Source: Parcubacteria group bacterium GW2011_GWA2_48_9
GTDB taxonomy: Bacteria > Patescibacteriota > Patescibacteriia > UBA10025
Assembly (NCBI GenBank): GCA_001003705.1
Contig: LCPQ01000001.1
Location: forward strand, 58,008-122,007
Direction of reading: 5' to 3'
DNA: 64,000 nt
Positions 14,689 through 45,715 of the stretch are shown here, in pieces. The notes under the pieces are model-generated. The model searched no databases, was not told the DNA's origin, and saw only the letters and a list, made by a program, of their open reading frames with translations. Within the stretch, counting starts at the first letter, position 1. The number at the start of each line of letters is the position of its first letter. The translations under genes and the position numbers were made by a program.

Positions 14689-15848
14689 TTACTCATCCTG
14701 AAGTACCAAGTCCTGTTCCGTGCCAGTTTTAAGCATCAAATCTGATCGGGGGGTAGATGTACTCACCGTTTTTCGGAAGCCGATTCGGTCAGGCGCGTGC
14801 ACAGGGGCAAGACGATGTAAAGTGCCCCAATGCACCGTTTCTTCCCCAAAGCGGTCATTCAAGACATCCATGGCGGCATAGACCGCGTCTTTTCGCGGCT
14901 GTGCCCAAAAACATCCTTGGTGCGATAACGTCCTCAGTCGAAAGACGCCGATGGCGAACGACTGCGCAGTATACGAACCAATCAGGCGTTCCAGGATACG
15001 CCAACCAAGCCGAAATATCTCGTCACCCCCCGTAAGAGAGCGGCTGAGAGTAACGTTTTTCCCATAGTAGCCACCTTCGCGAAGACCGACCGAAACGAAA
15101 AGCCCCTGTGCTTCCAGTCCGCGTGTACGCACATCCCTGCCAGTACGTTCCGCAAGCCGCATGAGTACTGACTGATAAAACCTCCGGTCAGTCGTACGGG
15201 TACGCAAAACATGTGAGTGCCCGATGGATTTCGGCTGTTCGACTGGCGTGGCCAGACGCGCCGGGGCGAGTTCGATACCATTGACATTCGCCCAAAGTTC
15301 ATGTCCTCTGATGCCGAGCAAACGCTTCAAGGCGTGCGGCTCGCACATCATGAGTTCGTCGAGCGTCCGAATGCCCAAAAGATGGAGACGGGCGGCAGTG
15401 CGATCAGCGATGCCCCACGCTTCTATCAGGTCGCGCCCCTTGAGATACCCCAAAAGGTTGTTGCGACTCAAAACCACTATCCCTCCTTTTTCACACGTGT
15501 CAGAACCGAATTTGGCCAGCCATCGAGTCGGCGCGATGCCTATGGAGTTCGTACATCCGAATACTGCCTGATGATAGAAAAGATTTTTTCAGTCGTCGAA
15601 CGGTACTTCGACGGATCGACTTCTACTAATATGATATCTGGGTATAAAAACTTTGCCTCGTCGGCACGACAACCGGTCTTAATGCCCACCGCCTTCGCTT
15701 CCTTCGATGAAGCGAGAATACACCCGTGCGGTGTCATGGTGGCGACAACTCCCAAGGGTTTCCCGCGTAGCGTAGGATTCGCCTGCTGCTCAACGCTGGC
15801 AAAGTACGAATTCATGTCCAGATGCATAATGATGCGCTTCGCTGGCAT
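14689..15848 (-). pseudogene. dinB: DNA polymerase IV (Y-family, DinB) disrupted by an internal deletion of about 130 nt plus a frameshift
   Basis: ORF 15540..15848 encodes DinB residues about 1–100 (…HLDMNSYFASVEQ…). ORF 14689..15477 and its upstream extension encode residues about 145–360 (…GIAPTRWLAKFGSD…YLKGRDLIEAWGIADRTAARL…). The segment holding the catalytic SIDEAxLD motif is absent. Translating both frames across 15530-15590 shows the two halves abut in different frames. Confidence 0.6.
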
Positions 15849-15862
15849 ATATGACAGTATCG

Positions 15863-16111
15863 CTATTCAATTTGTATCTCACTCAATACCCATATCAGGC
15901 GCTCAGGGTCATACTCCAGTCCATACGTGTTTCCTCCGTCTGAAACGGCAAAACACCATACATAGCGGGAACCTACCCGTTTCCGATATACCAAGTTCAC
16001 CCTTTCCACATCATATCGCTTTCCTGCCCGTAAAAAGGCTAAAGGACGGACTTTCACGCCGTCAAAGTCCACAACCACCCGTATGGGCTCCCGCATGCGT
16101 TCTACGAGCAT
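15863..16111 (-). CDS. Small hypothetical protein (82 aa) immediately upstream of dinB and co-oriented with it
   Basis: ORF with a 14-nt gap to dinB. No family recognised. Confidence 0.35.
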   Translation of the reverse strand: MLVERMREPIRVVVDFDGVKVRPLAFLRAGKRYDVERVNLVYRKRVGSRYVWCFAVSDGGNTYGLEYDPERLIWVLSEIQIE

Positions 16112-16299
16112 ATAATGCGTCTGAGAGGGTCCTTATTTATGGGTAATCCCCTTCTAAACCCTCTGCATTCATTATACCGAAGAAAAACCGAACATGCAAG
16201 CCCCACGTGACGCTCGTCCTGAAGCTACGCGATAGTGAAGCAGAAGGACCTCATTGAGCGACGCTGGCCAGATAACACCTTCTGTCCTAGCGGGAGCAC

Positions 16300-17253
16300 T
16301 TATACATTTTTTACTTCCACTGGTGATGTGCTGGTAAAAGCAGTGTCAACAGTAGGCCGAGGAGGTTCGATGTATTTTCTTCCAGACCTCTGCACCATGT
16401 AAATCGATCCCACAAGAATGATGCCACCAATGACTTGAGTTGTTACCAAAGCTTGATCAAGAAAAATCCAGTTGAGCGCTACCGCTGAAAACGGAAAAAC
16501 CAGCTCAGCAATTGTTGCTACGGAAGCTTTAGTTGATTTGAGGCCGTAGTAATAAATGAGTAGGGCTCCTGTACCCGTAAAAACTGTGATGAGTAGCAGA
16601 CGAGTAATATCTGTGCCAGACAATCCTCCCAGAAGGTGGAGGGTTCGCTGTGTGACGATAAAAAACAACATAAAGAGTAATGCAACGCTCAAACGGAGTG
16701 ATGTCAAGGCTGGATATGTTAACTTACGAAGCACATACCTACCCATCACTGTTGACCCGCCCCAAAAGAAAGCAGCCAAGAGCGCATACCATACCCCTTT
16801 CATACTCGTGAGCGAAAGGTTTCCTATCCCGTCCGGGAATGAAACGAAGTATGCGCCTCCAAGCGCCAAAAGCGTCCAGATCCAAAACGATGTGGCGAGA
16901 CGTTCTTTGAGGAGAAGCGCCGCTAATACTAATGCGATTATCGGCTGAGTTTTTTGCAATAAGATCGCTACGGTTGGCGAAACATATGTAAATGCAGACG
17001 TGAAAAAATACGTCGCCAGAGCCGAACCCCCGACGGCGATAAACAGCACTGCCCACAACTCCTTCCGATTCAATGCCTCAAACTGTTTTCTACTCTTCCA
17101 AAGAATTGGAAGAAGTAAAATAGCCCCAAAAAGATGCTCATAAAAAACAATCGTCGAGCTCGAGATACCCTCCGTTAACGGCTGACGAAGTAATGAATCA
17201 GCACTCCAAAGTAGAGCCGCTATCATTATGAAAAATGCACCGTACTTCCGCAT
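16300..17253 (-). CDS. EamA/DMT-family transporter
   Basis: 317 aa with 10 TM segments and two EamA-like repeats. Confidence 0.75.
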   Translation of the reverse strand: MRKYGAFFIMIAALLWSADSLLRQPLTEGISSSTIVFYEHLFGAILLLPILWKSRKQFEALNRKELWAVLFIAVGGSALATYFFTSAFTYVSPTVAILLQKTQPIIALVLAALLLKERLATSFWIWTLLALGGAYFVSFPDGIGNLSLTSMKGVWYALLAAFFWGGSTVMGRYVLRKLTYPALTSLRLSVALLFMLFFIVTQRTLHLLGGLSGTDITRLLLITVFTGTGALLIYYYGLKSTKASVATIAELVFPFSAVALNWIFLDQALVTTQVIGGIILVGSIYMVQRSGRKYIEPPRPTVDTAFTSTSPVEVKNV

Positions 17254-17335
17254 ATTGGAGCTAAGAGTACACCCCCCTATGTATCGGTGTCAATATTCCT
17301 TCGCAGGACTTATTCTTAATTTGTATCTTTTCCTT

Positions 17336-19279
17336 TTACAATTCCTCCCACGTCTCATCCAAAGCTCTCCAAATTCCACCTGGCCCTGAAGTAAATGATG
17401 TACTGGCAAGACCTGACTCGTACGTGACCTCCACATTATTATCGAGCTGTAACAAATACCCAGTCGCCTCATTCAACTCAGCGTTATTACTTATTTCAAG
17501 CATCCCTTGGCTCGTGAAGAAAATAGCGCCGCTGACATTATTTTGGATATGTATTGCAGGGTCTGTAAGAGCAGTTATACCCTTGTTTGTAGATGCAACC
17601 ATGACATAGCTATCAGCTGCGCCGGACCCCTGAATGTCACCATTATTGTTTATAACTACTTTTCCTTGTGTTTGTTGGTATGAAGGGTCGTCAACGATAA
17701 TAACTGAACTTTGGGATCCAAAGGATGGGGACAGTTTGATATCAGCGTTGTTATCTATGGTAAGATTGCCTTTGACCCAAATAATACCATTCATTGTTAC
17801 TTGGGCGCTGTTAGTTATGAAAAGGTTTCCATCTATCTTCACGGGACCAAGAGTGGTTCCATTTGGCACTGTATATGTAGTTCCCACCCCTCCTGGCGGA
17901 GTAACGACTCCTCCTATTTCAGCATCAATTTCCCACTGCTTAATCTGTGCATTTGAAATCGGCATGTTCTCTGGAGGCGCGTCAACAGGAGGATCAACTG
18001 CGGTTGGGCAGGTTTTTACTCCGGATACCGTGTTGCTGCTCTCAGTTTCACACGTGAGATTGCCACTGATCACTGAGTTCGTCACATTCTCGGCGGTTAC
18101 ATTCCCGGCAATGGTACCTTGGTTGATTGACCCGCATTCCACATCACCAGCTACGGTCGTGCTTTCCATGATCTGACATTCGACATTGGCGGAGATATTT
18201 GAAGTTTGAATAGTATTGGCATGAACAAATCCTCCGGCTGTCGCCGGCACTCGCAAACCAGTAATGGAGGTCGGGACCCCACCCATGAAGACTTTAAAAC
18301 CGAAATCGGCGTTTGCGCTCTGCCATGGGTCGCTACCCCAGTCTTTGGAAAACATACCGATCCCGTTCCCGTAACCCGCGTTATCGTGAGCCCCCCATAT
18401 CCAATACTTACTGGCATTTTTACTACCTACGTCAAAAATTATCCAGTACGTAGATCCTTTTATGAGAGGTGGGGTGGTGTTAAAAGTAATATCTATCCAA
18501 CCATATGTAGTGGTCACCAGTGTTGCATTCAGTGTCCCGGAGGCAAGTTCTGTAGTTCCGGGTAATCCAGCATTATCTGTCACTATATGCATCGTAGCGT
18601 TCGATGGGCTGCCGACTTTTTTTATATATAAGCTGATTTTATTCATGACATTTGTTTCTCCTGCTTTGAAGCTCTGTGCAGCATCAGTTTCATTGGTTGT
18701 CCTTCCGACATCATATTCAGAGCTCTGGACTATCTGGCTTTGGTCAGGTGTAAGGGCGGTCCCCCCGGCGACAATGACACTTCCTTGTATTTCAGCGTTG
18801 TTACCGGCGGTGATACTGCCATTCGAGTAGACATTCCCTTTCACAATCGCATTATTGTCCATATTAAGCCCCCCTTCACCTACTTGAACACCGTAATAAA
18901 AGGATGCCTCACTTGTTGCGGGTTCGTCTGTTGCTGTTACCCGTATAGTTCGTTGCACATTGCCTGTGGTTCCGACGGATGTAACCTCCTTGTTGTCACC
19001 AACAACAGCTACTGAAACAGAAAAGGAACCCGCGCCCAGTTGAGTAGTTTCTCCGATGTATGGATTACCACATACGGCAGGCTTGTTAAGACACCAGAGT
19101 GCCCGATCAATTCCTGCTTCAGCAAGCTGAAAAGCAAGTGTCCGACGCGTCTCTTTGCGCAACACAAAAGAGTTATAGGCAGTGGTCGAGGTAATCGCGA
19201 GGACGATTACAATGGCAGAACTCACCATGATCAGTGCCAGTATGAGTGCCTGTCCTTTATTTGTTCCTGAGACGTGCAT
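17336..19279 (-). CDS. Large type IV pilin-like protein (prepilin-type N-terminal helix plus about 600 aa Thr/Ser/Asn/Gly-rich beta-rich domain)
   Basis: The N-terminus (…NKGQALILALIMVSSAIVIVLAITS…) resembles a class III signal peptide with a hydrophobic helix. The remainder is low-complexity and repeat-like. It lies adjacent to two pseudopilin genes. Confidence 0.5.
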   Translation of the reverse strand: MHVSGTNKGQALILALIMVSSAIVIVLAITSTTAYNSFVLRKETRRTLAFQLAEAGIDRALWCLNKPAVCGNPYIGETTQLGAGSFSVSVAVVGDNKEVTSVGTTGNVQRTIRVTATDEPATSEASFYYGVQVGEGGLNMDNNAIVKGNVYSNGSITAGNNAEIQGSVIVAGGTALTPDQSQIVQSSEYDVGRTTNETDAAQSFKAGETNVMNKISLYIKKVGSPSNATMHIVTDNAGLPGTTELASGTLNATLVTTTYGWIDITFNTTPPLIKGSTYWIIFDVGSKNASKYWIWGAHDNAGYGNGIGMFSKDWGSDPWQSANADFGFKVFMGGVPTSITGLRVPATAGGFVHANTIQTSNISANVECQIMESTTVAGDVECGSINQGTIAGNVTAENVTNSVISGNLTCETESSNTVSGVKTCPTAVDPPVDAPPENMPISNAQIKQWEIDAEIGGVVTPPGGVGTTYTVPNGTTLGPVKIDGNLFITNSAQVTMNGIIWVKGNLTIDNNADIKLSPSFGSQSSVIIVDDPSYQQTQGKVVINNNGDIQGSGAADSYVMVASTNKGITALTDPAIHIQNNVSGAIFFTSQGMLEISNNAELNEATGYLLQLDNNVEVTYESGLASTSFTSGPGGIWRALDETWEEL

Positions 19280-19847
19280 GTGTTTGTAATGTGTGAGTTA
19301 GTGTGCGCTGACCAGCTATGGTAGATATGGTAAACGTACTTGCGACATCGTAACTATTCTCCGGATCGGTATCGGTATAAGTAAACGTGAGATCTTCTAT
19401 GTGAGATCCGAGAACTTCCGTTCTGTCTGTGCGCGAACTCGTATCATCTGCATCGGTAACGCGAAGCATTTTTGTAGTATCGAGAGGATCCAAGGTGAGA
19501 ACCATGTAATCGTATGTATTCGGAATAATAGATCCGTCACCATCAATGGCAAGCGCCTCAAGAATTACTGTAGTTGAACCTGTGAGGTATGGCTGAGAAA
19601 GGATACTCTTCGATTGGACGATCCTTGATGAAGGAAGTACTGTGTCACTAATGCGCTTTGCTATTGTCGACGCTTCAAATAGTAACTCCTGCTTTACGCG
19701 AGAATCACGAGCTGTCCGTGAAAAATTAATAAAGAGCGGACCAAGTAGTGTGACTAAAGTGACAAGCACCCCGATAGTAATGAGCATATCAACAAGAGTG
19801 AATGCTCCTCTAGGTTTCGTTGTGTTCCTTAAGAATCGTACAGGCAT
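19257..19847 (-). CDS. Prepilin-type (pseudopilin / minor pilin) protein
   Basis: N-terminus …KPRGAFTLVDMLITIGVLVTLVTLL… matches the G-F-T-L-(I/V)-E-like prepilin cleavage and methylation motif. Confidence 0.6.
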   Translation of the reverse strand: MPVRFLRNTTKPRGAFTLVDMLITIGVLVTLVTLLGPLFINFSRTARDSRVKQELLFEASTIAKRISDTVLPSSRIVQSKSILSQPYLTGSTTVILEALAIDGDGSIIPNTYDYMVLTLDPLDTTKMLRVTDADDTSSRTDRTEVLGSHIEDLTFTYTDTDPENSYDVASTFTISTIAGQRTLTHTLQTHARLRNK

Positions 19848-19860
19848 TAAGGTAAAACAC

Positions 19861-20760
19861 TCAGTCTATTAATATAGATGGTGTTAGAGAGCGACTGAAG
19901 CGTTGCCACCCGGAAGCAACCTGATCTACTGTTTCTGTAACTGCTGGAAAACTCCAGAAGTTACTTGTTATATTTGATACAAAAACATCATCAAAGTCGG
20001 CGGTAACACCGTCGAGTGCCGCGAGCGCATAGAGCCCTTGATCAAATGTGTTGTCATTGATGGGTGCACCGGTTTCATAGCTCCCATTAATGGAGATAGT
20101 AAACGCTCCGCCAGTCGCCGTTACCCGCATCGAATACCACACATCTTTCGAAAATGCTTTCGCCTTTGTCCAGAGTTGAGTCTGCACTCCTTCTACCACA
20201 CGAACCATTGTTATCTGAGCCGCAGATACACTAATAAGGTAGTAATTCTGCGTGTCATGATAGCGTATGTACATCCCGGTGCGCCAGCTAGCTTGGGATT
20301 CGTTTCGTGCACGGAAATATAACTCCATGGTAGCATCTCCAATGCGCCCGACAGGGACAATCTGCCTACTTGGATTTGCACTGCCAGTAGCACTGCCAGC
20401 TGCATAGACATAGGGTGAAGACCTTGGGTTCACAGGGTCTTGAATTGACCAATTTCCGCTGTTGTAGCCAACTTCAATGAAAGATGTCGCGGTTCGATTT
20501 CCTAAATCAGCAAAAGACGCGCTACGCAAAGCCTCCACCTCCTCGATCAGTAATTGGCGCGCAAGTGTTAGGTATTGGCTATGTCGCTGTAGCCTCTGGG
20601 TGTTACTGAATCCTGCAACAACAATCACGAGAATAGTCACTACACCAATTGCTATGACTGTCTCAATGAGGCCTACTCCGCTTCGCCCTGCAAAAGATTG
20701 GCGTGCACTCGCCGTACGTATATCCTCCATGTGTGGGTGTATTATACCATATTTATACAA
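19861..20760 (-). CDS. Prepilin-type (pseudopilin) protein
   Basis: N-terminus …GRSGVGLIETVIAIGVVTILVIV… shows the prepilin motif with Glu at +5. Confidence 0.55.
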   Translation of the reverse strand: MYKYGIIHPHMEDIRTASARQSFAGRSGVGLIETVIAIGVVTILVIVVAGFSNTQRLQRHSQYLTLARQLLIEEVEALRSASFADLGNRTATSFIEVGYNSGNWSIQDPVNPRSSPYVYAAGSATGSANPSRQIVPVGRIGDATMELYFRARNESQASWRTGMYIRYHDTQNYYLISVSAAQITMVRVVEGVQTQLWTKAKAFSKDVWYSMRVTATGGAFTISINGSYETGAPINDNTFDQGLYALAALDGVTADFDDVFVSNITSNFWSFPAVTETVDQVASGWQRFSRSLTPSILID

Positions 20761-20796
20761 AAAATCAACCCACTTGTGAAACTGTCAGTTTTTTAA

Positions 20797-21375
20797 TTAT
20801 TGAGTTCTTACCGAAAATCGAATATCTTCGACTCGGTGTAAATTTCTTTTTGCGTCGTCAAACTTCTGTCGCAAATAGCCAGTAAGATTGCAACGAAGAA
20901 GTTCTTCGACAACATGTTCAACAACAGCATGTACGGTGTCTACACGTGCCTTATCGCCTTGTGTCGCAGCGGCAACTGATAATCTCACTAATTCACCAGT
21001 AACATCGGCGAGTGCGCCGATAGTTTCATCATACTCGGGCTCAAATGGTGTGGTGATCTCAATAGTCCCTTTGGTAACAAATGTATAATACATCAGTGCT
21101 TCAAGGTACTCTTCCATAGCTGCACGAATTGAACCTTCATATCGTAGCTTAGACTCTCGCTTCCACATGGAACGCAGTTTTTTCAAATCTCGTTCCGCCT
21201 CACGAATTTCCCTACGCGCTTCTTTGACATTGTCACGATGCAGCGAAAAAATTGCACGTTTCGAGTGTTGAAGCGCGCCTTGGGAGTACGCAAACGATTT
21301 TGAACGTGACTGACTGAAGGCTTGGGCAGCTGATAGTAGCGATCGAAAAAAGCGTGATTCAGACATTGTCTTCAT
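20797..21375 (-). CDS. Translin-like helical protein (tentative)
   Basis: 192-aa all-helical protein. The C-terminal half (…EEYLEALMYYTF…YDETIGALADVTGELVRLSV…) resembles the translin (E)Y…GLxDLTGELxR signature. Recognised by eye only. Confidence 0.45.
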   Translation of the reverse strand: MKTMSESRFFRSLLSAAQAFSQSRSKSFAYSQGALQHSKRAIFSLHRDNVKEARREIREAERDLKKLRSMWKRESKLRYEGSIRAAMEEYLEALMYYTFVTKGTIEITTPFEPEYDETIGALADVTGELVRLSVAAATQGDKARVDTVHAVVEHVVEELLRCNLTGYLRQKFDDAKRNLHRVEDIRFSVRTQ

Positions 21376-21622
21376 TCTCTATCCGAGCATTTTCAGCAAT
21401 TTCAGGAAAACTGGATTGAAGGTTTTCGCGCAGTACAACCGAATCTTCATCCTCCGTCATGCGCCCATCTTCTATAAACTCACTAATAACCTCGTCAATG
21501 AGTGACTCGAACTCTTCGTACGTTAATGAAGGGTTCTCCATCTTCTTCTGAATATTTTTGATTATCTCGGTGGTTAGTTCTGGTGCTTCCATGGTCTTAT
21601 GCGTTATCTCCGTTTTGTTCAA
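21359..21622 (-). CDS. Small acidic hypothetical protein (87 aa)
   Basis: ORF overlapping the neighbouring genes by a few codons. Very Glu/Asp-rich. No family recognised. Confidence 0.3.
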   Translation of the reverse strand: MNKTEITHKTMEAPELTTEIIKNIQKKMENPSLTYEEFESLIDEVISEFIEDGRMTEDEDSVVLRENLQSSFPEIAENARIENEDNV

Positions 21623-21815: not shown

Positions 21816-21817
21816 AA

Positions 21818-25239: not shown

Positions 25240-25926
25240 CTACTGTATGGAAGTTCTGAGTTTGTTCAAGAGCTTACTTCCATTCGCACAGAGGAATCGA
25301 TGATCGGTATCAACGACCCGTCGACCATCGAAATCACAGAAACGCGCACCCGCCTCTTTCGAGCCATGGCGAGTCAGCCTGGAAATGATATCATGATTAC
25401 GTGGTCCTGATGAACGATAACTTGCCATGAAAGCGATCGTCGAGTGCGAAAGTTCGCGCACCTTATTTACATGGAGGCGACGATTGCCTACATACGCACC
25501 TTGTCCTCGAATTGCAGAGTACGTCGTATGTAGTAATGGATGGTAGATTACTGAAGCGAGAAGCATTTTCCTATAGAGCAGCGCTATCGGTACTGTAAAG
25601 TTCGGAATACCGATAACAAAATTATACGTTCCATCGAGGGGATCAACTACCACAGTAAAATCGGAGTGCCTGCTCAACATCCCGGCTTCTTCTGAAATAA
25701 TGTTATATTTTGGAAATTTCCGAGTAAGTACGCTTAAAATTGCCGATTCCGACCCGAGGTCCGCTCGTGTGACGAAATCGCTCTCGTGTGTTTTCTTTTT
25801 TTGTCGAAGCTCTTCGCCAAAGTAACCACGCACTACTCTTCCGCCAGCTTCGGCAGCGCTCACCATGACCCGGAGAGACCGCCTCACAGTTTGCAGTGAT
25901 ATTTCGGCTGAAAAAATAGTACTCAT
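25240..25926 (-). CDS. Inositol monophosphatase-family phosphatase
   Basis: …ISEEAG… and …VVDPLDGTYNF… are metal-binding motifs of the IMPase/FBPase superfamily. Confidence 0.8.
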   Translation of the reverse strand: MSTIFSAEISLQTVRRSLRVMVSAAEAGGRVVRGYFGEELRQKKKTHESDFVTRADLGSESAILSVLTRKFPKYNIISEEAGMLSRHSDFTVVVDPLDGTYNFVIGIPNFTVPIALLYRKMLLASVIYHPLLHTTYSAIRGQGAYVGNRRLHVNKVRELSHSTIAFMASYRSSGPRNHDIISRLTRHGSKEAGARFCDFDGRRVVDTDHRFLCANGSKLLNKLRTSIQ

Positions 25927-35607: not shown

Positions 35608-36903
35608 ATGAGTGTACTCACAGTAACTTACCACCCGAACAGCCTCCTCCGAGCAACATTACTACCCGTGGAACTCGGCGCGCTTCAATCACCAGGAATA
35701 CAAAAAATGATCGATACAATGGTTGAGACGATGTTCGCCAAGAACGGTATTGGTATTGCAGCAAACCAAGTTGGTAAGAATCACCAGATTGCTATCCTTA
35801 ATACGGCGGAAGGTCCGGTGATAATTATTAATCCTCGGATTACGAAACTATCAATCCTGAAGGAGAACGGCGAAGAAGGCTGTCTCTCTGTTCCTGGCCT
35901 TTTCGGCATGGTAAGAAGACACCGGTCACTTACGTTGAGTGCATATGACCGCCACGGAAAATCATTTACCATGAAGGCGCGGGGCCTACTGGCTAGAGTC
36001 ATACAGCATGAAGTTGACCATCTCAATGGTATTCTCTTTCAATCAATTGACGTGGTCGGCGTTTTGACGCAACCAGACAAACCAGCCGGCAGGGGGTACC
36101 ATCTAATTGAGTCCCCTATTAAGAGACTTGCGCGGCGATATAAACTTCCTATCTACCAGCCCTTAACAGTGACCGATCCGTCTAGTATCGAGTTACTATC
36201 GGGACTCTCTCTCGACGTTGTCGTACTCGCTGCGTATGGTGAGTTGATCCCTAAAAAACTCTTGTCATTGCCTCGATGTGGCTGGTTGAACGTGCATGCA
36301 TCACTTTTGCCGAGACTGCGTGGCGCATCCCCCATCCAGCACGCACTTTTGGAGGGATACACAGAAACCGGCATTACCCTGATGAAAATGGTGGAAAAAC
36401 TTGACGCGGGCCCGGTGATCGCCAAATCTGTAATACTAGTTGATAAAGATGATACAGCCGGCTCACTCCATGACAAACTCGCCTTGCTAGGCGCGAAGTG
36501 CATTGAGGAGTATCTCATTGCTTACCTTACTGATCGGCGGCCAATAACCGAACAAGACCATGAGCAAGCGACATATTGCAAAAAAATTCGCAGTAGTGAC
36601 GCCCGTATCGATTGGCACGCATCTGCCGATGAGATTAATAGGCTTGTTCGCGCAATGAATCCAGCGCCTGGCGCCTTTACCCAATTTAATGGTAATCAAG
36701 TTAAGATTTTTGCCATTGAAACTTTTCAACATGAAGTTATTGGGCCTCCAGGAACTGTGGGAGGTGTTGGCGCGCATTTAGTGGTGTCGTCAGGTACTAG
36801 ACCATTACATATTCTTTCGCTTCAACTTCCAGGCAAGAAAAAAGTGACCGGTGCGGAATTCATCAACGGCCATAGGAATATACTCCCTTTTTCATTCGTA
36901 TAG
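35608..36903 (+). CDS. Peptide deformylase – methionyl-tRNA formyltransferase fusion protein
   Basis: The N-terminal about 150 aa carry all three Def motifs (GIGIAANQ, EEGCLSVPG, QHEVDHLNG). The Fmt core follows directly, starting at …DVVGVLTQPDKPAGRG… with …NVHASLLPRLRGASPIQ…. The Def C-terminal helix and the first roughly 27 Fmt residues are missing. Confidence 0.85.
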   Translation: MSVLTVTYHPNSLLRATLLPVELGALQSPGIQKMIDTMVETMFAKNGIGIAANQVGKNHQIAILNTAEGPVIIINPRITKLSILKENGEEGCLSVPGLFGMVRRHRSLTLSAYDRHGKSFTMKARGLLARVIQHEVDHLNGILFQSIDVVGVLTQPDKPAGRGYHLIESPIKRLARRYKLPIYQPLTVTDPSSIELLSGLSLDVVVLAAYGELIPKKLLSLPRCGWLNVHASLLPRLRGASPIQHALLEGYTETGITLMKMVEKLDAGPVIAKSVILVDKDDTAGSLHDKLALLGAKCIEEYLIAYLTDRRPITEQDHEQATYCKKIRSSDARIDWHASADEINRLVRAMNPAPGAFTQFNGNQVKIFAIETFQHEVIGPPGTVGGVGAHLVVSSGTRPLHILSLQLPGKKKVTGAEFINGHRNILPFSFV

Positions 36904-39274: not shown

Positions 39275-39276
39275 AT

Positions 39277-39966
39277 ATGCTTAAGATTGGTCATCGTGGC
39301 GCCGCTGGACACGAGCCGGAAAATACGATGATATCTTTTCAGCGTGCAATTGATATGGGGGCAGACGCCATCGAGCTGGATGTGCAAACGACAAAAGACG
39401 GTGAAGTCATTGCCATGCATGATGCAACTGTCAATAGAACAACTAACGGAGGTGGACGGGTATCACATTTATTATCAGTAGATATACGACGTTTGCGAAC
39501 CAAAAAAAGGAACCAGCCAATCCCAGCATTACGTGAAATCCTCGATGTTTACCAAAACAACCGAGCAATATTTATTGAGATTAAAGACCTTAATAGTGTT
39601 AAATACGTTGCTGACCTGCTACTAAAGCGAGACCACTTTCATAACATTGTTGTCATTTCACTGAACAGACAAGTACTCAAGTCTTTCAATGCACATGCAC
39701 CAAATATTAACACCGGATCATCGTTTATAATACCACCATTTCCGCTGCCGTTTGTCGCGCAGCACTTCATTATCCCTCGTGCACGAATACTAAACGCGCA
39801 GTGGATAAATCTTTTTCATCCTATGATCACTCAATCCCTCGTTATAAGCCTTCACAAAAATGGTTTCAAGGTTAATGCATGGACAGTTGATACGCCAAGT
39901 GCCATAGAACGAATGAGACGATACGGTGTAGATGGCATTATTTCTAACTTCCCGGATCGCCTATGA
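39277..39966 (+). CDS. Glycerophosphodiester phosphodiesterase
   Basis: …IGHRGAAGHEPENT…ELDVQTTKDGEVIAMHD… is the GDPD signature. Confidence 0.85.
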   Translation: MLKIGHRGAAGHEPENTMISFQRAIDMGADAIELDVQTTKDGEVIAMHDATVNRTTNGGGRVSHLLSVDIRRLRTKKRNQPIPALREILDVYQNNRAIFIEIKDLNSVKYVADLLLKRDHFHNIVVISLNRQVLKSFNAHAPNINTGSSFIIPPFPLPFVAQHFIIPRARILNAQWINLFHPMITQSLVISLHKNGFKVNAWTVDTPSAIERMRRYGVDGIISNFPDRL

Positions 39967-40829
39967 TTACTGTTATCCTAACGAGTTCTACGGAACATTT
40001 TAGAAAACGACTTGAATCCGCTGGCGATATCCAGGTCATGGATTCTGATGTAAATAATGACGGAAAAAGGGTCTTCCCTGATGGTGAGGCCTATGCGAGA
40101 CTTTCTCATGCTGATGAACTTGCGGGTAGGGTCATCATCCTCCATTCAGGTGCACCGTACCCTAACCGCGGGTTGCTTGAGCTGGAGATGCTGATCGAAA
40201 TTGTCAGGAATTCCCCATCTGGTGTTCCTGAGATATTTTTTACATATTTTCCGTATGGGATGCAGGACGCGCAATTTCAAATAGGCGAGATAAATGTAGC
40301 AGATAACATTTTTAGAAAGCTCACATCATACTACGGCATAAAGAAAATTTACACTGTCGACCTCCACTGCGCTGGCAAACTATGGATGGTGAAATATCCA
40401 GTAGTCAACGTCTCCGCACTCGAACTACTGAGAGGCGTGGCATCACAAGAATACCCAGATGCGGTATTTGTCACTCCTGACAGCGGACATGAGCGCCGCA
40501 CCGGTATCAAAGGGGCTAAAAAGACGCGCATACATTCTTATCACTCTGAACTGCATTTTGATGATACCATGAAAAGCCTTGTGGTCGGGAAAACCGTTGC
40601 GGTCGTCGACGACATCCTCGAAACAGGCGGTACATTAGATCATTTTTACGATGAATGTAAAAAATATGGCGCAAAAGAGCTACTTGCACTCATCGCGCAT
40701 GGCATCCTCCGCGATGGGATTAATCGTATAACGAATAAATACAAACAGCTGTATCTCACGAATTCGGTAAACCATCCTGAAACGAACGTAGACATCACCC
40801 CACTCATTATTCAAACACTCAATACTTGA
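39963..40829 (+). CDS. prs: Ribose-phosphate pyrophosphokinase-like phosphoribosyltransferase
   Basis: The N-terminal Prs-like domain is followed by the PRPP-binding loop …VAVVDDILETGGTL…. Confidence 0.7.
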   Translation: MITVILTSSTEHFRKRLESAGDIQVMDSDVNNDGKRVFPDGEAYARLSHADELAGRVIILHSGAPYPNRGLLELEMLIEIVRNSPSGVPEIFFTYFPYGMQDAQFQIGEINVADNIFRKLTSYYGIKKIYTVDLHCAGKLWMVKYPVVNVSALELLRGVASQEYPDAVFVTPDSGHERRTGIKGAKKTRIHSYHSELHFDDTMKSLVVGKTVAVVDDILETGGTLDHFYDECKKYGAKELLALIAHGILRDGINRITNKYKQLYLTNSVNHPETNVDITPLIIQTLNT

Positions 40830-40830
40830 T

Positions 40831-42147
40831 ATGCTCCAATCTGATTTCCCATACTACAATACCATTGACCAAATCTACCATACACGGTGGGTTACCGATA
40901 AGCTCGCTAGAATTGAGCGACTACGAGGTATCATTGCCGATCTATGGCCGGCAGGTCATCCGACGCGCTTTATTCATGTCGCTGGTACGAGTGGTAAGGG
41001 CTCTGTATGCAAATTTCTTGAAGCTGGATTTCGAACGATTGGTTCAGCTGGTTCACTTACTGGTCCACATCTTTTCGATTACTGCGAGCGCTTCAGTATT
41101 GGGACGAATGATGTGACACACGCGGATGTTACAGATGCGTGGGAAAACACTGTGCGTCCACTATCGGTAGCCATGGCACGAACTACAGATAAAGAAGGAC
41201 TGGGATTTGGAGAAGTTACTATGCTCATAGCGCTTGTCCTTTTTGAGAGGTACAAATTGCAATGGGCCGCAATCGAGGGATTTGTTGGGGGCAGATATGA
41301 CTACCCAATGGCACTCAATGTTGATGCAACTATTCTTACAAATGTAGGAAACGACCACGCCCATCTGCTAGGCCAAAATAAGTGGCAACGCACATTAGAT
41401 AAAGCTGGTATCTCACGAAAAGGTATCCCACTGATCCTGGGAACCAGCGACCTCGACGTTGTCTCGATAGTTGATTCGGTATGTTCTCACGTTGGTGCCG
41501 AGTTGCTCCCCACCCGGCCTCAAAATACGCAGTATTGCGATGACTACGTCCGCAATCATTCACAGGAAATGCCATCTGATGCCCTCCTCCATGCTACACA
41601 CCAGGTGGTGAATGCTGCTACTGCACTCACAGCATTACAACGGCTCATTCCCCATCCTGATGTGCAGAAAATTATTGGAACGATGGCATCACTTACCATG
41701 CCAGGACGTCTACAACAGATTGAGGAAGGTATTTATATCGATGTTGCACACAACCCCGATAAAATTCTTCGACTTGTCGATGAAGTCAAAAAACGATTTG
41801 TGAACCGAAAGAAGCTTTTTCTCGTTGGATTGTCAAAGAAGCGCTCAGGGAATGAAGTACTCACTCCCATTATGGATATAGCTGACACTGTTATAGTCTC
41901 ATTGCCATCCCACCAAGGTGTCGACCCAATGGAGGTTGGTAAGGAACTTGCGTCCTATAATAAAGGCACGAGGCTAGAAGTGATTCAGAATCCCCAAAAG
42001 GCTATCGCGAAATTGAGGCATCTCCGCAATCACGGCGATGCTATCATCATCACTGGTTCAACATATCTTATAGATGATGCCATCAATCCTGACAGGCTAC
42101 TTCAGCATATTGGCGCCTCTGCCGGATGGAGATCAACTACTGTATAA
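40831..42147 (+). CDS. folC: Folylpolyglutamate synthase / Mur-ligase-family protein
   Basis: P-loop …HVAGTSGKGSV… and Mur ligase middle and C-terminal domains. 438 aa. Confidence 0.75.
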   Translation: MLQSDFPYYNTIDQIYHTRWVTDKLARIERLRGIIADLWPAGHPTRFIHVAGTSGKGSVCKFLEAGFRTIGSAGSLTGPHLFDYCERFSIGTNDVTHADVTDAWENTVRPLSVAMARTTDKEGLGFGEVTMLIALVLFERYKLQWAAIEGFVGGRYDYPMALNVDATILTNVGNDHAHLLGQNKWQRTLDKAGISRKGIPLILGTSDLDVVSIVDSVCSHVGAELLPTRPQNTQYCDDYVRNHSQEMPSDALLHATHQVVNAATALTALQRLIPHPDVQKIIGTMASLTMPGRLQQIEEGIYIDVAHNPDKILRLVDEVKKRFVNRKKLFLVGLSKKRSGNEVLTPIMDIADTVIVSLPSHQGVDPMEVGKELASYNKGTRLEVIQNPQKAIAKLRHLRNHGDAIIITGSTYLIDDAINPDRLLQHIGASAGWRSTTV

Positions 42148-42157
42148 AGAAAGCTTT

Positions 42158-42286
42158 CTAAAACGCCTCTTCTCCATTTTGCGTCTCTGTTACTTCAAAG
42201 CCGGCATGGTGCAAACTGGCATGAAGAACTCCACGAACTGCTTTTTCGTCTTCAACTATTAAGATTTTTCTTTGTTGCTCTGCCAT
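42158..42286 (-). pseudogene. Response-regulator receiver-domain remnant (about 42 aa)
   Basis: MAEQQRKILIVEDEKAVRGVLHASLHHAGFEVTETQNGEEAF matches the first roughly 40 residues of a CheY-like REC domain and then stops. There is no downstream continuation in any frame. Confidence 0.45.
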
Positions 42287-42332
42287 AAGCCTATGATGTA
42301 TAAGTTGTAGGTACTGGTATCTTACAATGCCC

Positions 42333-43145
42333 TTACCTGGCGAGCCAAGAGCGCAAATCGCTGTATGACATAAGGTTGAGGATATTTCCAGGCTTGATGC
42401 CACGGCTAAAAAGACGATTAACCCCAAGGGTCAATTGACTATGCTGACGCGCAGTAAGTTTCCCGGTTTCTCCATCAACGTCAGGATGGATATCAGTCCC
42501 TAGAGAAACCATGGCCCCTACTTCCCCAATTAAATCAATAAAGTTCTCGTCATATTGCCATGAGGTATTGTATTCTACCGCAATGTTATTTTTTTTCGCG
42601 ACGGTAAGTACTTCCCTCCAATTGTCTAATGTAAGCGGAAAAACATACCTCGTCGGGTGGCTAAGAATATGGACTCGCGAAGACTCGAGAGAAGAACGGA
42701 AATCCCGCATTATCACTTGGGGATCTTTTTCATTTAAGCCTCCGTGTCGAGCAATTATCACAATATCAAGTTGTGAAAGTATATAGTCAGGAACCTCTAA
42801 TTTTCCATTGGGCATGATGCTCATCTCCACACCTATCAGAACATGAAAATCCTTTAACTTCCCTTCTGATTGAAGATCATCCATCCGCTGCTGATTTTCG
42901 AGAAGCTCCTTTGCGCGCCGTGCGTCTATGGTATGCGGAGAGACAGGGTTAGTCGGGTGTTGCACTATTGCAACATACTCCATTCCAATATCATTTTTTG
43001 TCATTTCAACCATGTCAAAAAGCGACTGCGGACCGCATGAAACAGGGTCGCCTCGTATCTCACCGGCATGGTGGGTGGAACACTCCGTATGGTGACTATG
43101 GACATGAAGATCCCCCCGCAGACGATACGTTGGTGAGCTGTTCAT
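42333..43145 (-). CDS. PHP-domain metal-dependent phosphoesterase
   Basis: …DLHVHSHHTECSTHHAGE… and distal His/Asp motifs of the PHP fold. 270 aa. Confidence 0.7.
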   Translation of the reverse strand: MNSSPTYRLRGDLHVHSHHTECSTHHAGEIRGDPVSCGPQSLFDMVEMTKNDIGMEYVAIVQHPTNPVSPHTIDARRAKELLENQQRMDDLQSEGKLKDFHVLIGVEMSIMPNGKLEVPDYILSQLDIVIIARHGGLNEKDPQVIMRDFRSSLESSRVHILSHPTRYVFPLTLDNWREVLTVAKKNNIAVEYNTSWQYDENFIDLIGEVGAMVSLGTDIHPDVDGETGKLTARQHSQLTLGVNRLFSRGIKPGNILNLMSYSDLRSWLAR

Positions 43146-43154
43146 ATGTTCTAC

Positions 43155-44004
43155 TCAATATTTTTCTACTTTGATGTGCATCCACTTCTTTCCCTGCGGA
43201 AGTGCCCGTAGAATCAGCCCATGCTTGGCGCCAATTTGTTGAACAACTGACGCCGAATTGATCGATGCCAGTCTGAGCGCGTAGTCAATGTCGCCCGGAC
43301 GTTTAATCAAACCTGCAACAAACCCGGAGCCGTATGCATCACCAGCACCCGTCGTATCGACTGCCTTCACCGGGTTGATCACTACCTTTCTCACTGTCAT
43401 GCCATCGCATACCCATGAACCTTTTTTACCTTCAGTGATCACGGCAATGCCGTCACATACGCGATCCATTCCTCTCACAAAGTGCAACGTGGGTTCTATA
43501 CTTCCTTGCCATAGACAGAGCTTTCTTTAACAGCGGAATGTTCCCTGCTAGCGAAGAGATATAAAACCACCGTGTGCGGGCTTTCGACCAAGAAACGTCG
43601 TTAGGCTGAAGTGTATGACTGACACCACGGTATACGAGAATAGTGCGTTCACCGCTAGAGGTCAAAAAAATAGTCGAATACCCAGTCCGGCCTTCCGGAT
43701 CTGTAATGACAAAAGGGAGATATATGCCATACGACATTAAGAGACGTTTAACTGACTCGCCAGCGGGATCTAAGCCGACTCTCGTTACGACAGCTGTACG
43801 CAGGCCTTGGCGTGAAAAGGTTACAGCAGTATTCGTCGCTCCGCCCCCAACTTCAAAGAGCACATCGTCGAGCTCAACTTTTGTCCCAAACGCGAAACAC
43901 TCCGCCTGCCCAGTAATAAAGCGTTTATCGCGGATAATGCGGAATCGTTTGCTTACCAGGTAGACATCCTGAGTTGCCTGGCCGATAGAAATTACGTCGT
44001 ACAT
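43155..44004 (-). pseudogene. PfkB-family carbohydrate kinase (ribokinase-like) split by a frameshift, possibly with a small internal deletion
   Basis: ORF 43453..44004 carries the N-terminal GG motif (…FEVGGGATNTAV…). ORF 43155..43487 carries the C-terminal DTTGAGDAY motif. The two are in different frames, overlapping by about 35 nt. Confidence 0.55.
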
Positions 44005-44005
44005 A

Positions 44006-44986
44006 TTAGCGTTTCCTTCTCAATACAGTATACACCGCTTTAGTGATGTCAGCAGCAGCAAGATGGTATTTTTTCATAAGCTCAGAAGGTTTTCCAGACT
44101 CACCAAAAGTATCCCCTACTCCTATACGTTGAATTGGCACGGGTAGTGCCTCACTCAGGAGCTCCGCTACCGCAGCACCCATCCCTCCAGTAATTTGATG
44201 TTCTTCGGCAGTTACTATCGCACCTGTCTTCTTGGCAGAATGTATAATTGTTCGCCGATCAGCTGGTTTGATGGTGTGATTATTTACTACTTCCACGTGA
44301 ATTCCTTTTGTACGCAAGTTTTTGGCCACCATAAGCGCTTCATACACTAGCGCGCCGCAGGCTATGATAGTAACATCGGTTCCAGGATGATAGATTTCTG
44401 CCTTGCCGATCGCAAAGGGTGTTCTGGGCGTGGTAACCACCGGCACCGCTTCACGCCCCATGCGTATATACACCGGTCCTTTGACCTTCACAGCGGCCAA
44501 TACGGCCTTCTCGGCCTCTAGCGCGTCTACAGGAGCAATAACCGTCATGTTTGGTAGTACGCGCATTATTGCAATGTCTTCGAGTGCTTGATGCGTTGCA
44601 CCGTCAGGCCCCACTGAGATCCCCGCATGTGCCCCAATGATTTTTACATTAGCTTTACTGTAACAGATTGATACGCGAATTTGATCCCAATTCCTCCCTG
44701 GGGAGAAAACTGCATATGAAACAATAAACGGAATTTTTCCTGCTAGTGCAAGACCGGCACTGATTCCCGCCATATTTTGCTCGGCCACACCTATTTCGAA
44801 GAATCTTTCTGGGAACGAATTCCGAAATACGAGCGATCTTGTCGATTCAGTTAAATCGGCACACAAAACCACCACGTTCCGGTTTTTCTTTCCAGCCTTT
44901 ACAACGCCCGTACCGTACCCATCACGCATCGGCACCAATTTTACTCCCCGTGAAAATACACTTGGTGATAGATATAACTTATTCAT
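44006..44986 (-). CDS. tkt: Transketolase, C-terminal (pyrimidine-binding) subunit
   Basis: 326 aa with the Pyr and C-terminal transketolase domains (…GVAEQNMAGISAGLAL…). Confidence 0.85.
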   Translation of the reverse strand: MNKLYLSPSVFSRGVKLVPMRDGYGTGVVKAGKKNRNVVVLCADLTESTRSLVFRNSFPERFFEIGVAEQNMAGISAGLALAGKIPFIVSYAVFSPGRNWDQIRVSICYSKANVKIIGAHAGISVGPDGATHQALEDIAIMRVLPNMTVIAPVDALEAEKAVLAAVKVKGPVYIRMGREAVPVVTTPRTPFAIGKAEIYHPGTDVTIIACGALVYEALMVAKNLRTKGIHVEVVNNHTIKPADRRTIIHSAKKTGAIVTAEEHQITGGMGAAVAELLSEALPVPIQRIGVGDTFGESGKPSELMKKYHLAAADITKAVYTVLRRKR

Positions 44987-45715
44987 GCTCCGAAGTGATT
45001 TTACCTTTGAGCGTCCTCAATGAATTTAGATCCTTCATTGCGCGTACTGCTTCTTGACCTTCCGGCGGTTTCCCATGCCAGTGAAAGTCAAACTCCATAA
45101 AACCAACACCTTTGCCTGGAATTGTATGACAGATAATTGCTACCGGTTTATCCCAAATTGCACGCGCCGTATGGCAGGCATCAATGATCTGTTGGATATT
45201 GTGACCATCTACCTCAAGTACGTGCCAATTGAATGACTCGTATTTTTTTCTGAGGGGCTCGATAGGCATGATGTCCTCCACTGGCCCATCTATTTGGATG
45301 CGAGTCTGCCCGCAAGCGCCATGCCAATAGATTGTGAGAGTCCCTGACCTAGCGGGCCGCTAGTATTTTCAATTCCTGGCAATGAACGATTGTGTGGATG
45401 ACCTTGGAGGCGCGAGTTAATTTTTCGAAGTGTATGGAGCTCTTTTACTGGAAAATAGCCTGCGTGCGCAAGCACTGCATACAGCACCGGAGCGAGATGG
45501 CCTGCGGAAAGTACCAGGCGATCTCGGTCGGGCCACTCGGGGCGCCGAGTATCATACCGCAAAACGCAAAAATAGAGTGCAGTAAATACGTCCGCCATAT
45601 CGAGCGGCCCGGCAGAGTGACCGGAGCCGGCGCTAACGAGCATTTTGATAATATCTTTCCGTATGTGGTTCGCTATCGACTCCAGTTCTGCGATTGAATA
45701 CGAACGTTTCTTCAT
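44979..45715 (-). pseudogene. tkt: Transketolase N-terminal (TPP-binding) subunit disrupted by an internal deletion of about 150 nt plus a frameshift
   Basis: ORF 45290..45715 ends …GPLGQGLSQSIGMALAGRLASK*. The next frame resumes at …IQIDGPVEDIMPIEPLRKKYESFNWHV…. The intervening GDGE…N TPP-binding segment (about 45–50 aa) is missing, and the halves are in different frames. Confidence 0.6.

What the first reader, a model, noticed from the sequence alone, without database searches (positions are those of the whole stretch)
14689..45715. Recurrent pattern: several genes carry internal deletions of roughly 100–170 nt at conserved core motifs (dinB, tkt-N, def–fmt junction, possibly pfkB)
Three or four independent loci show the same lesion type: a clean internal loss of about 40–55 codons rather than point frameshifts. 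Two of them remove catalytic motifs. A deletion of similar size would also explain the Def–Fmt junction. That junction is in-frame, but it lacks the Def C-terminal helix, the intergenic spacer and the first Fmt beta-strand. The cause may be biological (ongoing reductive decay, or short deletions between microhomologies) or technical (short-read assembly collapse). Either explanation affects how the rest of this genome should be read.
Basis: inference. Interest (0 to 1): 0.5.

Follow-up and report, generated by a model that had tools for sequence, protein, structure and literature searches.

The report
Assembly-join gaps mimicking gene deletions
Seven clean 87–134-base "deletions" that break eight genes in this groundwater Parcubacteria/Kerfeldbacteria contig are errors of one deposited short-read assembly, not genome decay, because every other assembly of the same population has the genes intact.

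Summary
The window lacks seven segments of 87, 127, 118, 123, 121, 134 and 130 nt, at 14464|5, 15553|4, 19899|900, 25356|7, 36037|8, 43480|1 and 45300|1. They disrupt a permease, dinB, a 333-aa gene, an inositol monophosphatase, def and fmt (fused), pfkB and tkt-N.

The lesion-specific proteins match GenBank entries KKW02379–KKW02413 exactly. All lie on one 148,973-bp contig of Parcubacteria bacterium GW2011_GWA2_48_9, so the lesions are in the deposited record.

At each site, 4–11 other assemblies at ≥99.9% flank identity (NCBI, ENA, JGI) carry the full sequence and full-length Pfam domains.

The junctions have 0–1 nt of microhomology and no shared repeat. Only 2 of 7 are in frame. Outside one patch the window has just 4 private SNPs.

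Contig ends, "NN" joins and an N-run in other assemblies sit on the low-coordinate edge of the missing segments. One UBA contig starts exactly at the dinB junction. Other UBA contigs retain parts of four "deleted" segments.

Verdict: butt-joined contig ends, the "scaffolding errors" described for these IDBA-UD assemblies. This is not reductive decay, microhomology deletion or repeat collapse. Biological interest is low. The practical value is a warning about this genome and about the artefactual 431-aa "Def–Fmt" protein.

The parts
14464..14465 (.). Junction 1. 87 nt are missing, in frame. They fall inside the Trp/Tyr-permease gene (window 13590-14642, minus strand). The gene gives 350 aa here and 379 aa in siblings.
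   Evidence: Seven sibling contigs carry the 87 nt. The product equals GenBank KKW02379.1, found only in GW2011_GWA2_48_9. UBA contig L041 has an 'NN' join hiding a different, overlapping 91 nt at the same place.
15553..15554 (.). Junction 2. 127 nt are missing, causing a frameshift in dinB. The segment encodes the Y-family polymerase 'YSIDEAF' motif.
   Evidence: UBA contig DPZA01000072.1 (L041) begins exactly at window 15553.
15540..15848 (-). dinB N-terminal fragment, 102 aa, IMS profile 1-88/148.
   Evidence: Equals KKW02381.1. The intact sibling DinB is 428 aa with IMS profile 1-147.
14689..15477 (-). dinB C-terminal fragment, 262 aa, containing IMS_C.
   Evidence: Equals KKW02380.1.
15425..15553 (-). 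Divergent 'H2' patch directly next to junction 2. There are 28 mismatches between 15425 and 15532, mostly at third codon positions, and the 13 nt at 15541-15553 match only 8/13. Among the assemblies compared, only the window and one UBA contig head have it. I interpret it as a dead-end branch that became a contig end.
19899..19900 (.). Junction 3. 118 nt are missing, causing a frameshift near the 3' end of a 333-aa gene annotated 'pectate lyase' (window 19861-20730, minus strand). The product here is 289 aa.
   Evidence: Eight sibling contigs carry the 118 nt. The product equals KKW02386.1.
25356..25357 (.). Junction 4. 123 nt are missing, in frame, in the inositol monophosphatase gene (window 25240-25926, minus strand). 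The product is 228 aa here and 269 aa in siblings.
   Evidence: Eleven sibling contigs carry the 123 nt. The product equals KKW02394.1. Contigs L020 and L021 start 7-8 nt before the low-coordinate boundary.
36037..36038 (.). Junction 5. 121 nt are missing. The loss removes the last 20 codons and the stop of def and the first 26 codons of fmt.
   Evidence: Contig L020 ends exactly at 36037. UBA contig L043 starts 8 nt before the boundary and contains the whole missing segment. An N-run in MHKE01000017.1 covers this boundary.
35608..36903 (+). Artefactual 431-aa Def-Fmt 'fusion' ORF.
   Evidence: Pfam: Pep_deformylase 3-146/156 joined to Formyl_trans_N 27-176/181. Equals KKW02404.1, a singleton on the 148,973-bp contig. 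Siblings have separate, overlapping def (163 aa) and fmt (314 aa) genes.
43480..43481 (.). Junction 6. 134 nt are missing, causing a frameshift in pfkB.
   Evidence: Nine sibling contigs carry the 134 nt. UBA contig L043 has an 'NN' join over positions -7 to +37 relative to the low-coordinate boundary and keeps the remaining 97 nt.
43453..44004 (-). pfkB N-terminal fragment, 183 aa.
   Evidence: Equals KKW02413.1, annotated 'PfkB family kinase, nonfunctional'. The intact sibling protein is 327 aa with PfkB profile 21-297.
43155..43487 (-). pfkB C-terminal fragment. The ORF is 110 aa. GenBank calls a 104-aa product, KKW02412.1.
45300..45301 (.). Junction 7. 130 nt are missing, causing a frameshift in tkt-N. 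The segment covers the thiamine-diphosphate-binding part of the profile.
   Evidence: Seven sibling contigs carry the 130 nt. Contigs L001 and L002 start at 45300/45301. UBA contig L011 has an 'NN' join there and keeps the last ~42 nt of the segment.
45290..45715 (-). tkt-N fragment 1, 141-aa ORF, Transketolase_N profile 4-129.
   Evidence: The intact sibling protein is 264/288 aa with a continuous profile match 19-272.
44979..45281 (-). tkt-N fragment 2, 100-aa ORF, Transketolase_N profile 197-273.

Best explanation
The window is part of the 148,973-bp GenBank contig of Parcubacteria group bacterium GW2011_GWA2_48_9. This is a Candidatus Kerfeldbacteria population from Rifle aquifer groundwater.

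The seven 'deletions' are local errors of that one short-read assembly. At each site two contig ends were joined directly, and the 87-134 nt that should lie between them were lost. No Ns mark the joins.

The breaks arose where this sample's assembly graph is interrupted, next to short strain-variable stretches or dead-end branches. In each case the contig on the high-coordinate side lacks its terminal ~120 nt.

What is shown:
- The lesions are private to one deposit.
- The junctions carry no homology.
- The junctions coincide with contig ends, NN joins and an N-run in other assemblies.
- Another assembler's contig starts exactly at one junction.

What is inferred: the step that lost the sequence.

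Consequence: the eight affected genes are intact in the organism, and the Def-Fmt 'fusion' does not exist.
For: 1. Source. Seven lesion-specific ORF products are exact matches to KKW02379.1, KKW02380.1, KKW02381.1, KKW02386.1, KKW02394.1, KKW02404.1 and KKW02413.1. Each is present on a single contig of 148,973 bp and nowhere else. The 104-aa KKW02412.1 (second PfkB fragment) lies on the same contig. The intact versions sit on 3-12 contigs in NCBI, JGI, ENA and Logan.

2. Siblings. 4-11 sibling contigs per site, 99.9-100% identical in the flanks, carry the missing segments. They include the same study's GW2011_GWC2_49_9, MHKE01000017.1, the raw ANAN16 scaffolds, MEGAHIT assemblies in ENA, JGI assemblies and UBA MAGs. 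Their proteins match Pfam profiles continuously.

3. Junction anatomy. Microhomology is 0-1 nt at each of the six junctions where it could be scored (up to 2 nt, ambiguous, at dinB). The missing segments are unrelated to each other and are not relocated elsewhere in the window.

4. No evolutionary signature. Length mod 3 is 0,1,1,0,1,2,1. def, fmt and tkt are hit. Outside the dinB patch there are only 4 window-private SNPs in 64 kb against 7 private deletions.

5. Coincidence with assembly breakpoints elsewhere.
- L020 ends exactly at 36037.
- L001 and L002 start at 45300/45301.
- L020 and L021 start 7-8 nt before the 25356 boundary.
- L002, L003 and L006 end inside the 43480 segment.
- L030 ends 11 nt beyond the dinB segment.
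- About 13 of 47 true contig ends lie within ~165 nt of a junction, against ~2 expected.
- The N-run in MHKE covers the 36037 boundary.

6. UBA assembly GCA_003535835.1, the only other assembly with the dinB H2 patch.
- Contig L041 starts exactly at window 15553. It has an NN join hiding a different but overlapping 91 nt at the 14464 site, and keeps 50 nt of the window's missing segment.
- L043 starts 8 nt before the 36037 boundary and contains that whole segment. It has an NN join at the 43480 boundary and keeps 97 nt of that segment.
- L011 has an NN join at 45301.

7. Precedent in the same deposit series. LCQH01000002.1 has a clean, N-less 37-nt deletion where a UBA assembly has NN.

8. Literature. 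[quoted passage not shown] Local assembly errors are described as prominent in IDBA-UD output (PMC7111523).
Against: - No reads were available, so lack of read support at the junctions is not shown directly.
- I could not show that UBA GCA_003535835.1 was assembled from the same sample as GW2011_GWA2_48_9. This is inferred from the shared, otherwise private H2 patch. The two differ at window 13899.
- Two junctions (14464 and 19899) have no nearby strain variation and no sibling contig ends, apart from the UBA NN join at 14464.
- GATC lies 5-7 nt inside four of the seven segments (permutation p about 0.012). An assembly artefact does not predict this.
- The density, 7 lesions in 31 kb, is high compared with the 13 errors per 1.13 Mb reported for one curated CPR genome (PMC7111523).
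Confidence: 0.9

Rival explanations
1. The deletions are real. A sub-population in the GWA2 sample suffered a burst of ~120-nt deletions, for example nuclease cuts near GATC followed by homology-independent end joining, or illegitimate joins at the ends of imported divergent DNA. On this view the deposit reports that sub-population faithfully.
For: - The lesions are in the deposited record, not made by windowing.
- GATC lies 5-7 nt inside 4 of 7 low-coordinate boundaries (p about 0.012).
- Variable tracts lie 0-135 nt to the low-coordinate side of 5 of 7 junctions, and a divergent patch abuts the dinB junction.
- The first base of contig L002 matches the junction allele rather than the intact allele. 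This is 1 nt only.
Against: - Seven gene-killing events, including def, fmt and tkt, stand against 4 private SNPs.
- There is no frame bias.
- The deletion alleles are on no other contig in NCBI, ENA, JGI or Logan. The def-fmt junction 40-mer is absent from the genome and metagenome contig collections.
- Sibling contigs run through the high-coordinate boundary without a break. A real deletion allele would create a branch at both boundaries.
- The UBA assembly that shares the H2 patch keeps parts or all of four 'deleted' segments, and shows a different lesion at the 14464 site.
Confidence: 0.04
2. Short-read assembly collapse through a repeat or shared k-mer. The assembler jumped between two copies of a short repeat and dropped the sequence between them.
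For: The size scale (87-134 nt) is close to the read length (150 nt) and the largest k (100) used for these assemblies.
Against: A de Bruijn-graph jump needs a shared word of about k-1 bases at both boundaries. Observed boundary homology is 0-1 nt. No repeat links the two boundaries of any segment, and the segments share nothing beyond chance 7-9-mers.
Confidence: 0.02
3. The lesions were introduced downstream of the deposit, for example by stripping N-runs or editing when the 64-kb window was prepared.
For: - The window has no Ns.
- The source contig is not retrievable with the contig tools.
- The window's own species is not visible in genome contigs.
Against: GenBank's own protein records for GW2011_GWA2_48_9 are exactly the truncated or fused products: the 431-aa 'peptide deformylase', the 228-aa IMPase, the 350-aa permease, and the 102- and 262-aa DinB pieces. 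The deposited nucleotide record must therefore already translate across these junctions. An N-run inside the in-frame products would give X residues, and none are present.
Confidence: 0.01

Closest known systems
IDBA-UD 'scaffolding errors' or local assembly errors in genome-resolved metagenomics (Anantharaman et al. 2016, PMC5079060; Chen et al. 2020, PMC7111523)
   Same: - Short regions where two contigs were wrongly joined.
- Same laboratory pipeline, site and assembler settings.
- They corrupt protein-coding genes in public databases.
- They occur at points where strain variants end contigs.
   Different: - Here the errors were neither repaired nor replaced by Ns.
- Their local density (7 in 31 kb) is higher than the example given in the literature.
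- Each time, sequence is lost on the same side of the breakpoint.
'NN' scaffold joins in UBA MAGs of the same population (GCA_003535835.1, GCA_003527115.1)
   Same: - They hide 0-212 nt of real sequence with no junction homology.
- Five of them, or of the contig ends, coincide with the window's junctions.
   Different: They are flagged by two Ns, so gene callers and readers can see them. The window's joins are silent.
Genuine pseudogenisation in reduced symbiont genomes
   Same: Truncated and split housekeeping genes in a small-genome, probably symbiotic bacterium.
   Different: Real decay is shared by close relatives, comes with point mutations and small frameshifts, and spares essential genes such as def and fmt. 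None of this holds here.

Membership tests
Scaffold-join or local assembly error of a short-read MAG | The lesion is private to one assembly. Independent assemblies of the same population have the full sequence. | tested here: met
   All seven segments are present in 4-11 sibling contigs at 99.9-100% flank identity. The lesion products are singletons of one GenBank contig.
Scaffold-join or local assembly error of a short-read MAG | The junction coincides with contig ends or flagged joins. | tested here: met
   L041 starts exactly at 15553. L020 ends at 36037. L001 and L002 start at 45300/45301. UBA NN joins lie at 14464, 43480 and 45301. An MHKE N-run covers 36037. There is no such evidence for 19899.
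Scaffold-join or local assembly error of a short-read MAG | No perfectly mapped read or read pair supports the junction in the source sample. | not testable with these tools
Indirect evidence: a UBA assembly sharing the private H2 patch retains parts of four missing segments.
Microhomology-mediated or slipped-strand deletion | A short direct repeat (about 3 nt or more) is present at both boundaries, with one copy retained. | tested here: not met
   Boundary homology is 0 or 1 nt at each of the six junctions that could be scored. At dinB it is at most 2 nt and ambiguous.
Repeat or k-mer collapse misassembly | A sequence of roughly k-mer length is shared at the two boundaries. | tested here: not met
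   There are no shared words at the boundaries, and the segments are unique in the window.
Reductive genome decay (pseudogenes) | Lesions are inherited by close relatives and accompanied by other mutations. Essential genes are spared. | tested here: not met
   Siblings are intact. There are only 4 private SNPs outside one patch. def, fmt and tkt are hit. Only 2 of 7 lesions are in frame.
Natural bifunctional Def-Fmt fusion protein | Both domains are complete, and the fusion recurs in related genomes. | tested here: not met
   Def lacks profile positions 147-156 and Fmt lacks 1-26. The 431-aa protein is a singleton (KKW02404.1). All relatives have separate, overlapping def and fmt genes.

The most novel reading that the evidence does not exclude
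A real, very recent burst of ~120-nt, homology-independent deletions in one sub-population of a CPR bacterium. The deletions would be seeded next to GATC sites and next to imported or variable DNA tracts, for example restriction-type cleavage followed by one-sided resection and end joining. That would be an unusual mutational process for a bacterium with no obvious end-joining system.
Probability: 0.03. Interest if true: 0.6.

Novelty: not a real feature. Interest (0 to 1): 0.1.

Why it matters
There is nothing new biologically, but the result changes how this genome should be read.

- At least eight genes in this 64-kb stretch of GW2011_GWA2_48_9 look broken or fused only because of silent assembly joins. 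Any inference of missing DinB, transketolase, PfkB, deformylase or formyltransferase function, of pseudogene load, or of a Def–Fmt fusion from this record is unsound.
- The faulty products are already in public protein databases. KKW02404.1 is in nr, UniParc and MetaClust, annotated "peptide deformylase". KKW02413.1 is annotated "nonfunctional".
- If the same error rate holds genome-wide, other truncated genes in this deposit should first be checked against sibling genomes such as GCA_001818285.1 or GW2011_GWC2_49_9.

Tried and rejected
**Source contig look-ups.**
- Looking up the source contig through lesion-specific proteins with the look-up of encoding contigs found nothing. The source record appears to be withheld from that tool. 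The exact-sequence cluster look-up found them.
- The def–fmt junction 40-mer gave no match in genome contigs or metagenome contigs.
- An H2-patch 36-mer gave no match in metagenome contigs.

**Collection and homologue searches.**
- A PriA search of genome contigs, meant to fetch the species representative, returned only a 29%-identical Ratteibacteria locus.
- A search for a sister species that could have donated the H2 patch failed. The next DinB is only 56% identical.

**Properties of the missing segments.**
- They share no motif or structure, and they are not relocated elsewhere in the window.
- GATC association of assembly breakpoints in general is absent. Only the 4-of-7 signal at the junctions remains.

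**Other checks.**
- tRNA and Rfam scans of the window found only tRNA-Gln at 62.6 kb.
- The Brown et al. 2015 paper itself is not held. The method description was taken from the follow-up papers.
Full report
**1. Observation**

- dinB is split into a 102-aa piece (IMS profile 1-88/148) and a 262-aa piece (IMS_C only).
- tkt-N is split into pieces matching Transketolase_N 4-129 and 197-273.
- pfkB is split into pieces matching profile 21-126 and 223-297.
- A 431-aa ORF joins Pep_deformylase (profile to 146/156) directly to Formyl_trans_N starting at profile position 27.

The window contains no Ns.

**2. Exact anatomy from sibling assemblies**

Intact window proteins were used to fetch contigs that encode them. 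These came from NCBI, ENA, JGI and Logan and are 99.9-100% identical to the window. BLAST of these contigs against the window defines seven places where the window lacks sequence that every sibling has.

| Junction | Missing | Gene affected |
|---|---|---|
| 14464\|14465 | 87 nt | Trp/Tyr-type permease |
| 15553\|15554 | 127 nt | dinB |
| 19899\|19900 | 118 nt | 333-aa gene |
| 25356\|25357 | 123 nt | inositol monophosphatase |
| 36037\|36038 | 121 nt | end of def plus start of fmt |
| 43480\|43481 | 134 nt | pfkB |
| 45300\|45301 | 130 nt | tkt-N |

Three of these were not in the finding. No such lesion occurs in 1-14463 or 45302-64000.

The sibling proteins are full length with continuous Pfam matches:
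- DinB 428 aa, IMS 1-147
- Tkt-N 264 aa, profile 19-272
- Def 163 aa
- Fmt 314 aa
- PfkB 327 aa
- IMPase 269 aa
- permease 379 aa

def and fmt overlap in different frames in the siblings. Loss of 121 nt happens to put them in one frame, and that is the whole basis of the 'fusion'.

**3. Properties of the junctions**

- Boundary homology is 0 or 1 nt at each of the six junctions that could be scored, and at most 2 nt (ambiguous) at dinB.
- The missing segments are ordinary coding sequence. They are unrelated to each other and are absent from the rest of the window.
- Lengths mod 3 are 0,1,1,0,1,2,1, so there is no preference for keeping the frame.
- Apart from a 129-nt patch beside the dinB junction, the window has only four private SNPs in 64 kb: 13899, 24009, 24012 and 63879.

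Seven private gene-breaking deletions against four private SNPs, with def, fmt and tkt among the victims, is not what evolution produces. The lack of boundary homology also rules out slipped-strand or microhomology deletion. It likewise rules out a de Bruijn-graph jump through a repeat.

**4. Source of the window**

A homology search with the DinB C-terminal piece, followed by exact-sequence cluster look-ups, identified the source. Seven lesion-specific products are identical to GenBank proteins of 'Parcubacteria group bacterium GW2011_GWA2_48_9':
- KKW02379.1: 350-aa permease
- KKW02380.1 and KKW02381.1: the two DinB pieces
- KKW02386.1: 289 aa
- KKW02394.1: 228-aa IMPase
- KKW02404.1: 431-aa 'peptide deformylase'
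- KKW02413.1: the 183-aa PfkB piece, annotated 'nonfunctional' (the 104-aa KKW02412.1 on the same contig covers the other piece)

Each occurs on one contig of 148,973 bp and nowhere else. The intact versions occur on 3-12 contigs, including the sister genome GW2011_GWC2_49_9 and Ca. Kerfeldbacteria RIFCSPLOWO2_01_FULL (MHKE01000017.1).

The lesions are therefore in the deposited record and were not made when the window was cut. The contig itself could not be fetched, and the species is not visible in genome contigs. The junction 40-mer is absent from the searchable genome and metagenome contig collections.

**5. The junctions are assembly breakpoints**

True contig ends of sibling assemblies cluster at the low-coordinate boundary of the missing segments:
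- L020 ends exactly at 36037.
- L001 and L002 start at 45300/45301.
- L020 and L021 start 7-8 nt before the 25356 boundary.
- L002, L006 and L003 end 32-69 nt inside the 43480 segment.
- L030 ends 11 nt past the dinB segment.

About 13 of 47 ends fall within ~165 nt of a junction, where ~2 are expected. MHKE01000017.1 has a 21-N run covering the 36037 boundary. Strain-variable stretches lie 0-135 nt to the low-coordinate side of five of the seven junctions.

**6. The UBA assembly GCA_003535835.1**

This is the most telling comparison. It is the only other assembly that carries the divergent dinB patch.
- Its contig DPZA01000072.1 (L041) begins exactly at window 15553, so the window's dinB junction is a contig end.
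- The same contig has an 'NN' join at the permease site. That join hides a different, overlapping 91 nt and keeps 50 nt of the window's missing 87.
- DPZA01000092.1 (L043) starts 8 nt before the 36037 boundary and contains that whole missing segment. It has an 'NN' over positions -7 to +37 of the 43480 boundary and keeps the other 97 nt.
- DPZA01000129.1 (L011) has an 'NN' at 45301 and keeps the last ~42 nt of that segment.

Two assemblers failing at the same five places, with different and mutually incompatible outcomes, points to a technical cause.

**7. Precedent and literature**

- In the UBA MAGs of this population, 'NN' joins hide 0-212 nt.
- The sister 2015 deposit LCQH01000002.1 has a clean, N-less 37-nt deletion in a Translin-family gene, exactly where a UBA assembly has 'NN'.
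- The follow-up paper from the same laboratory describes the pipeline: IDBA-UD, k 40-100, 150-nt reads, 500-nt inserts. [quoted passage not shown]
- Chen et al. 2020 describe local assembly errors as prominent in IDBA-UD output and as a source of wrong protein sequences in databases (PMC7111523).

**8. Mechanism and its limits**

Best explanation, confidence about 0.9: butt-joined contig ends with the intervening 87-134 nt lost.

I cannot tell which step lost the sequence.

Three things remain unexplained.
- The loss is always on the high-coordinate side of the breakpoint.
- GATC lies 5-7 nt inside four of the seven segments (permutation p about 0.012). There is no general GATC association of contig ends.
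- The H2 patch is about 25% divergent, mostly at synonymous sites. The closest non-conspecific DinB is only 56% identical, and the patch is absent from JGI metagenome contigs.

**9. Verdict**

- The biological readings are rejected.
- The technical reading is accepted in a corrected form.
- It is not a real biological feature, so interest is low.
- The practical message is that truncated or fused genes in GW2011_GWA2_48_9 must be checked against sibling genomes before any functional inference.

Noticed in passing
window 15425-15553 (minus strand, dinB): A 129-nt stretch is about 25% divergent from all seven sibling contigs covering it. The differences are mostly at third codon positions, plus a few amino-acid changes (M->I, DHSNLSA->SRNNLLG). 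It occurs otherwise only at the head of UBA contig DPZA01000072.1. The nearest non-conspecific DinB is 56% identical, and the 36-mer is absent from JGI metagenome contigs. Its origin is unknown.
   Followed up: partly
junctions at window 19899, 36037, 43480, 45300: GATC starts 5-7 nt inside the missing segment, counted from its low-coordinate boundary, at 4 of 7 junctions (permutation p about 0.012). Contig ends of sibling assemblies in general show no GATC association.
   Followed up: partly
all seven junctions: Breakpoints in other assemblies (contig ends, NN joins, an N-run) always sit at the low-coordinate boundary of the missing segment, never at the high-coordinate one. The contig on the high-coordinate side has lost its terminal 87-134 nt each time.
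   Followed up: partly
window 20982-21025 (Translin-family gene, 20797-21375 minus strand): This is an error-prone or variable site. LCQH01000002.1 has a clean 37-nt deletion, UBA DPTA has 'NN' hiding 19 nt, and ANAN16 scaffold_455 has a 3-nt difference. A Translin-family (PF01997) gene in a CPR bacterium is also uncommon.
   Followed up: partly
L016 / MHKE01000017.1, at window 36004-36037 (and on into the missing segment), 39479-39494, 43318-43351, 44525-44563: The GenBank record of the sibling Kerfeldbacteria genome carries N-runs of 6-28 N. They replace 16-63 nt and remove its def, GDPD, pfkB and tkt-C gene calls.
   Followed up: yes
L033, L011, L041, L043 (GCA_003535835.1); L017, L028, L036 (GCA_003527115.1): The UBA MAGs of this population have an 'NN' join every few kb, each hiding 0-212 nt of real sequence.
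   Followed up: yes
L042 159-370: ANAN16 scaffold_347235 (1,383 bp) has about 200 nt of unrelated AT-rich DNA plus 10 Ns inserted in the permease gene. It is a chimeric mini-scaffold.
   Followed up: no
window 54846-63680: A metal or copper-handling gene cluster: an HMA-domain P-type ATPase (735 aa), HMA proteins, two cupredoxin-like proteins, DsbD, a VKOR-like protein, an ArsR-type HTH+YHS regulator, and a BlaR1-like M56 peptidase with a Penicillinase_R repressor.
   Followed up: no
window 13899, 24009, 24012, 63879: These are the only window-private single-base differences outside the dinB patch. 13899 lies 23-34 nt from a position (13922/13933) where contigs from five other assemblies end.
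   Followed up: no
Genome-contig collection: A search with the window's PriA, which is 100% conserved in four NCBI genomes of this species, returned only a 29%-identical Ratteibacteria locus. The window's own species seems to be hidden or masked in that collection, so negative junction searches there carry little weight.
   Followed up: no
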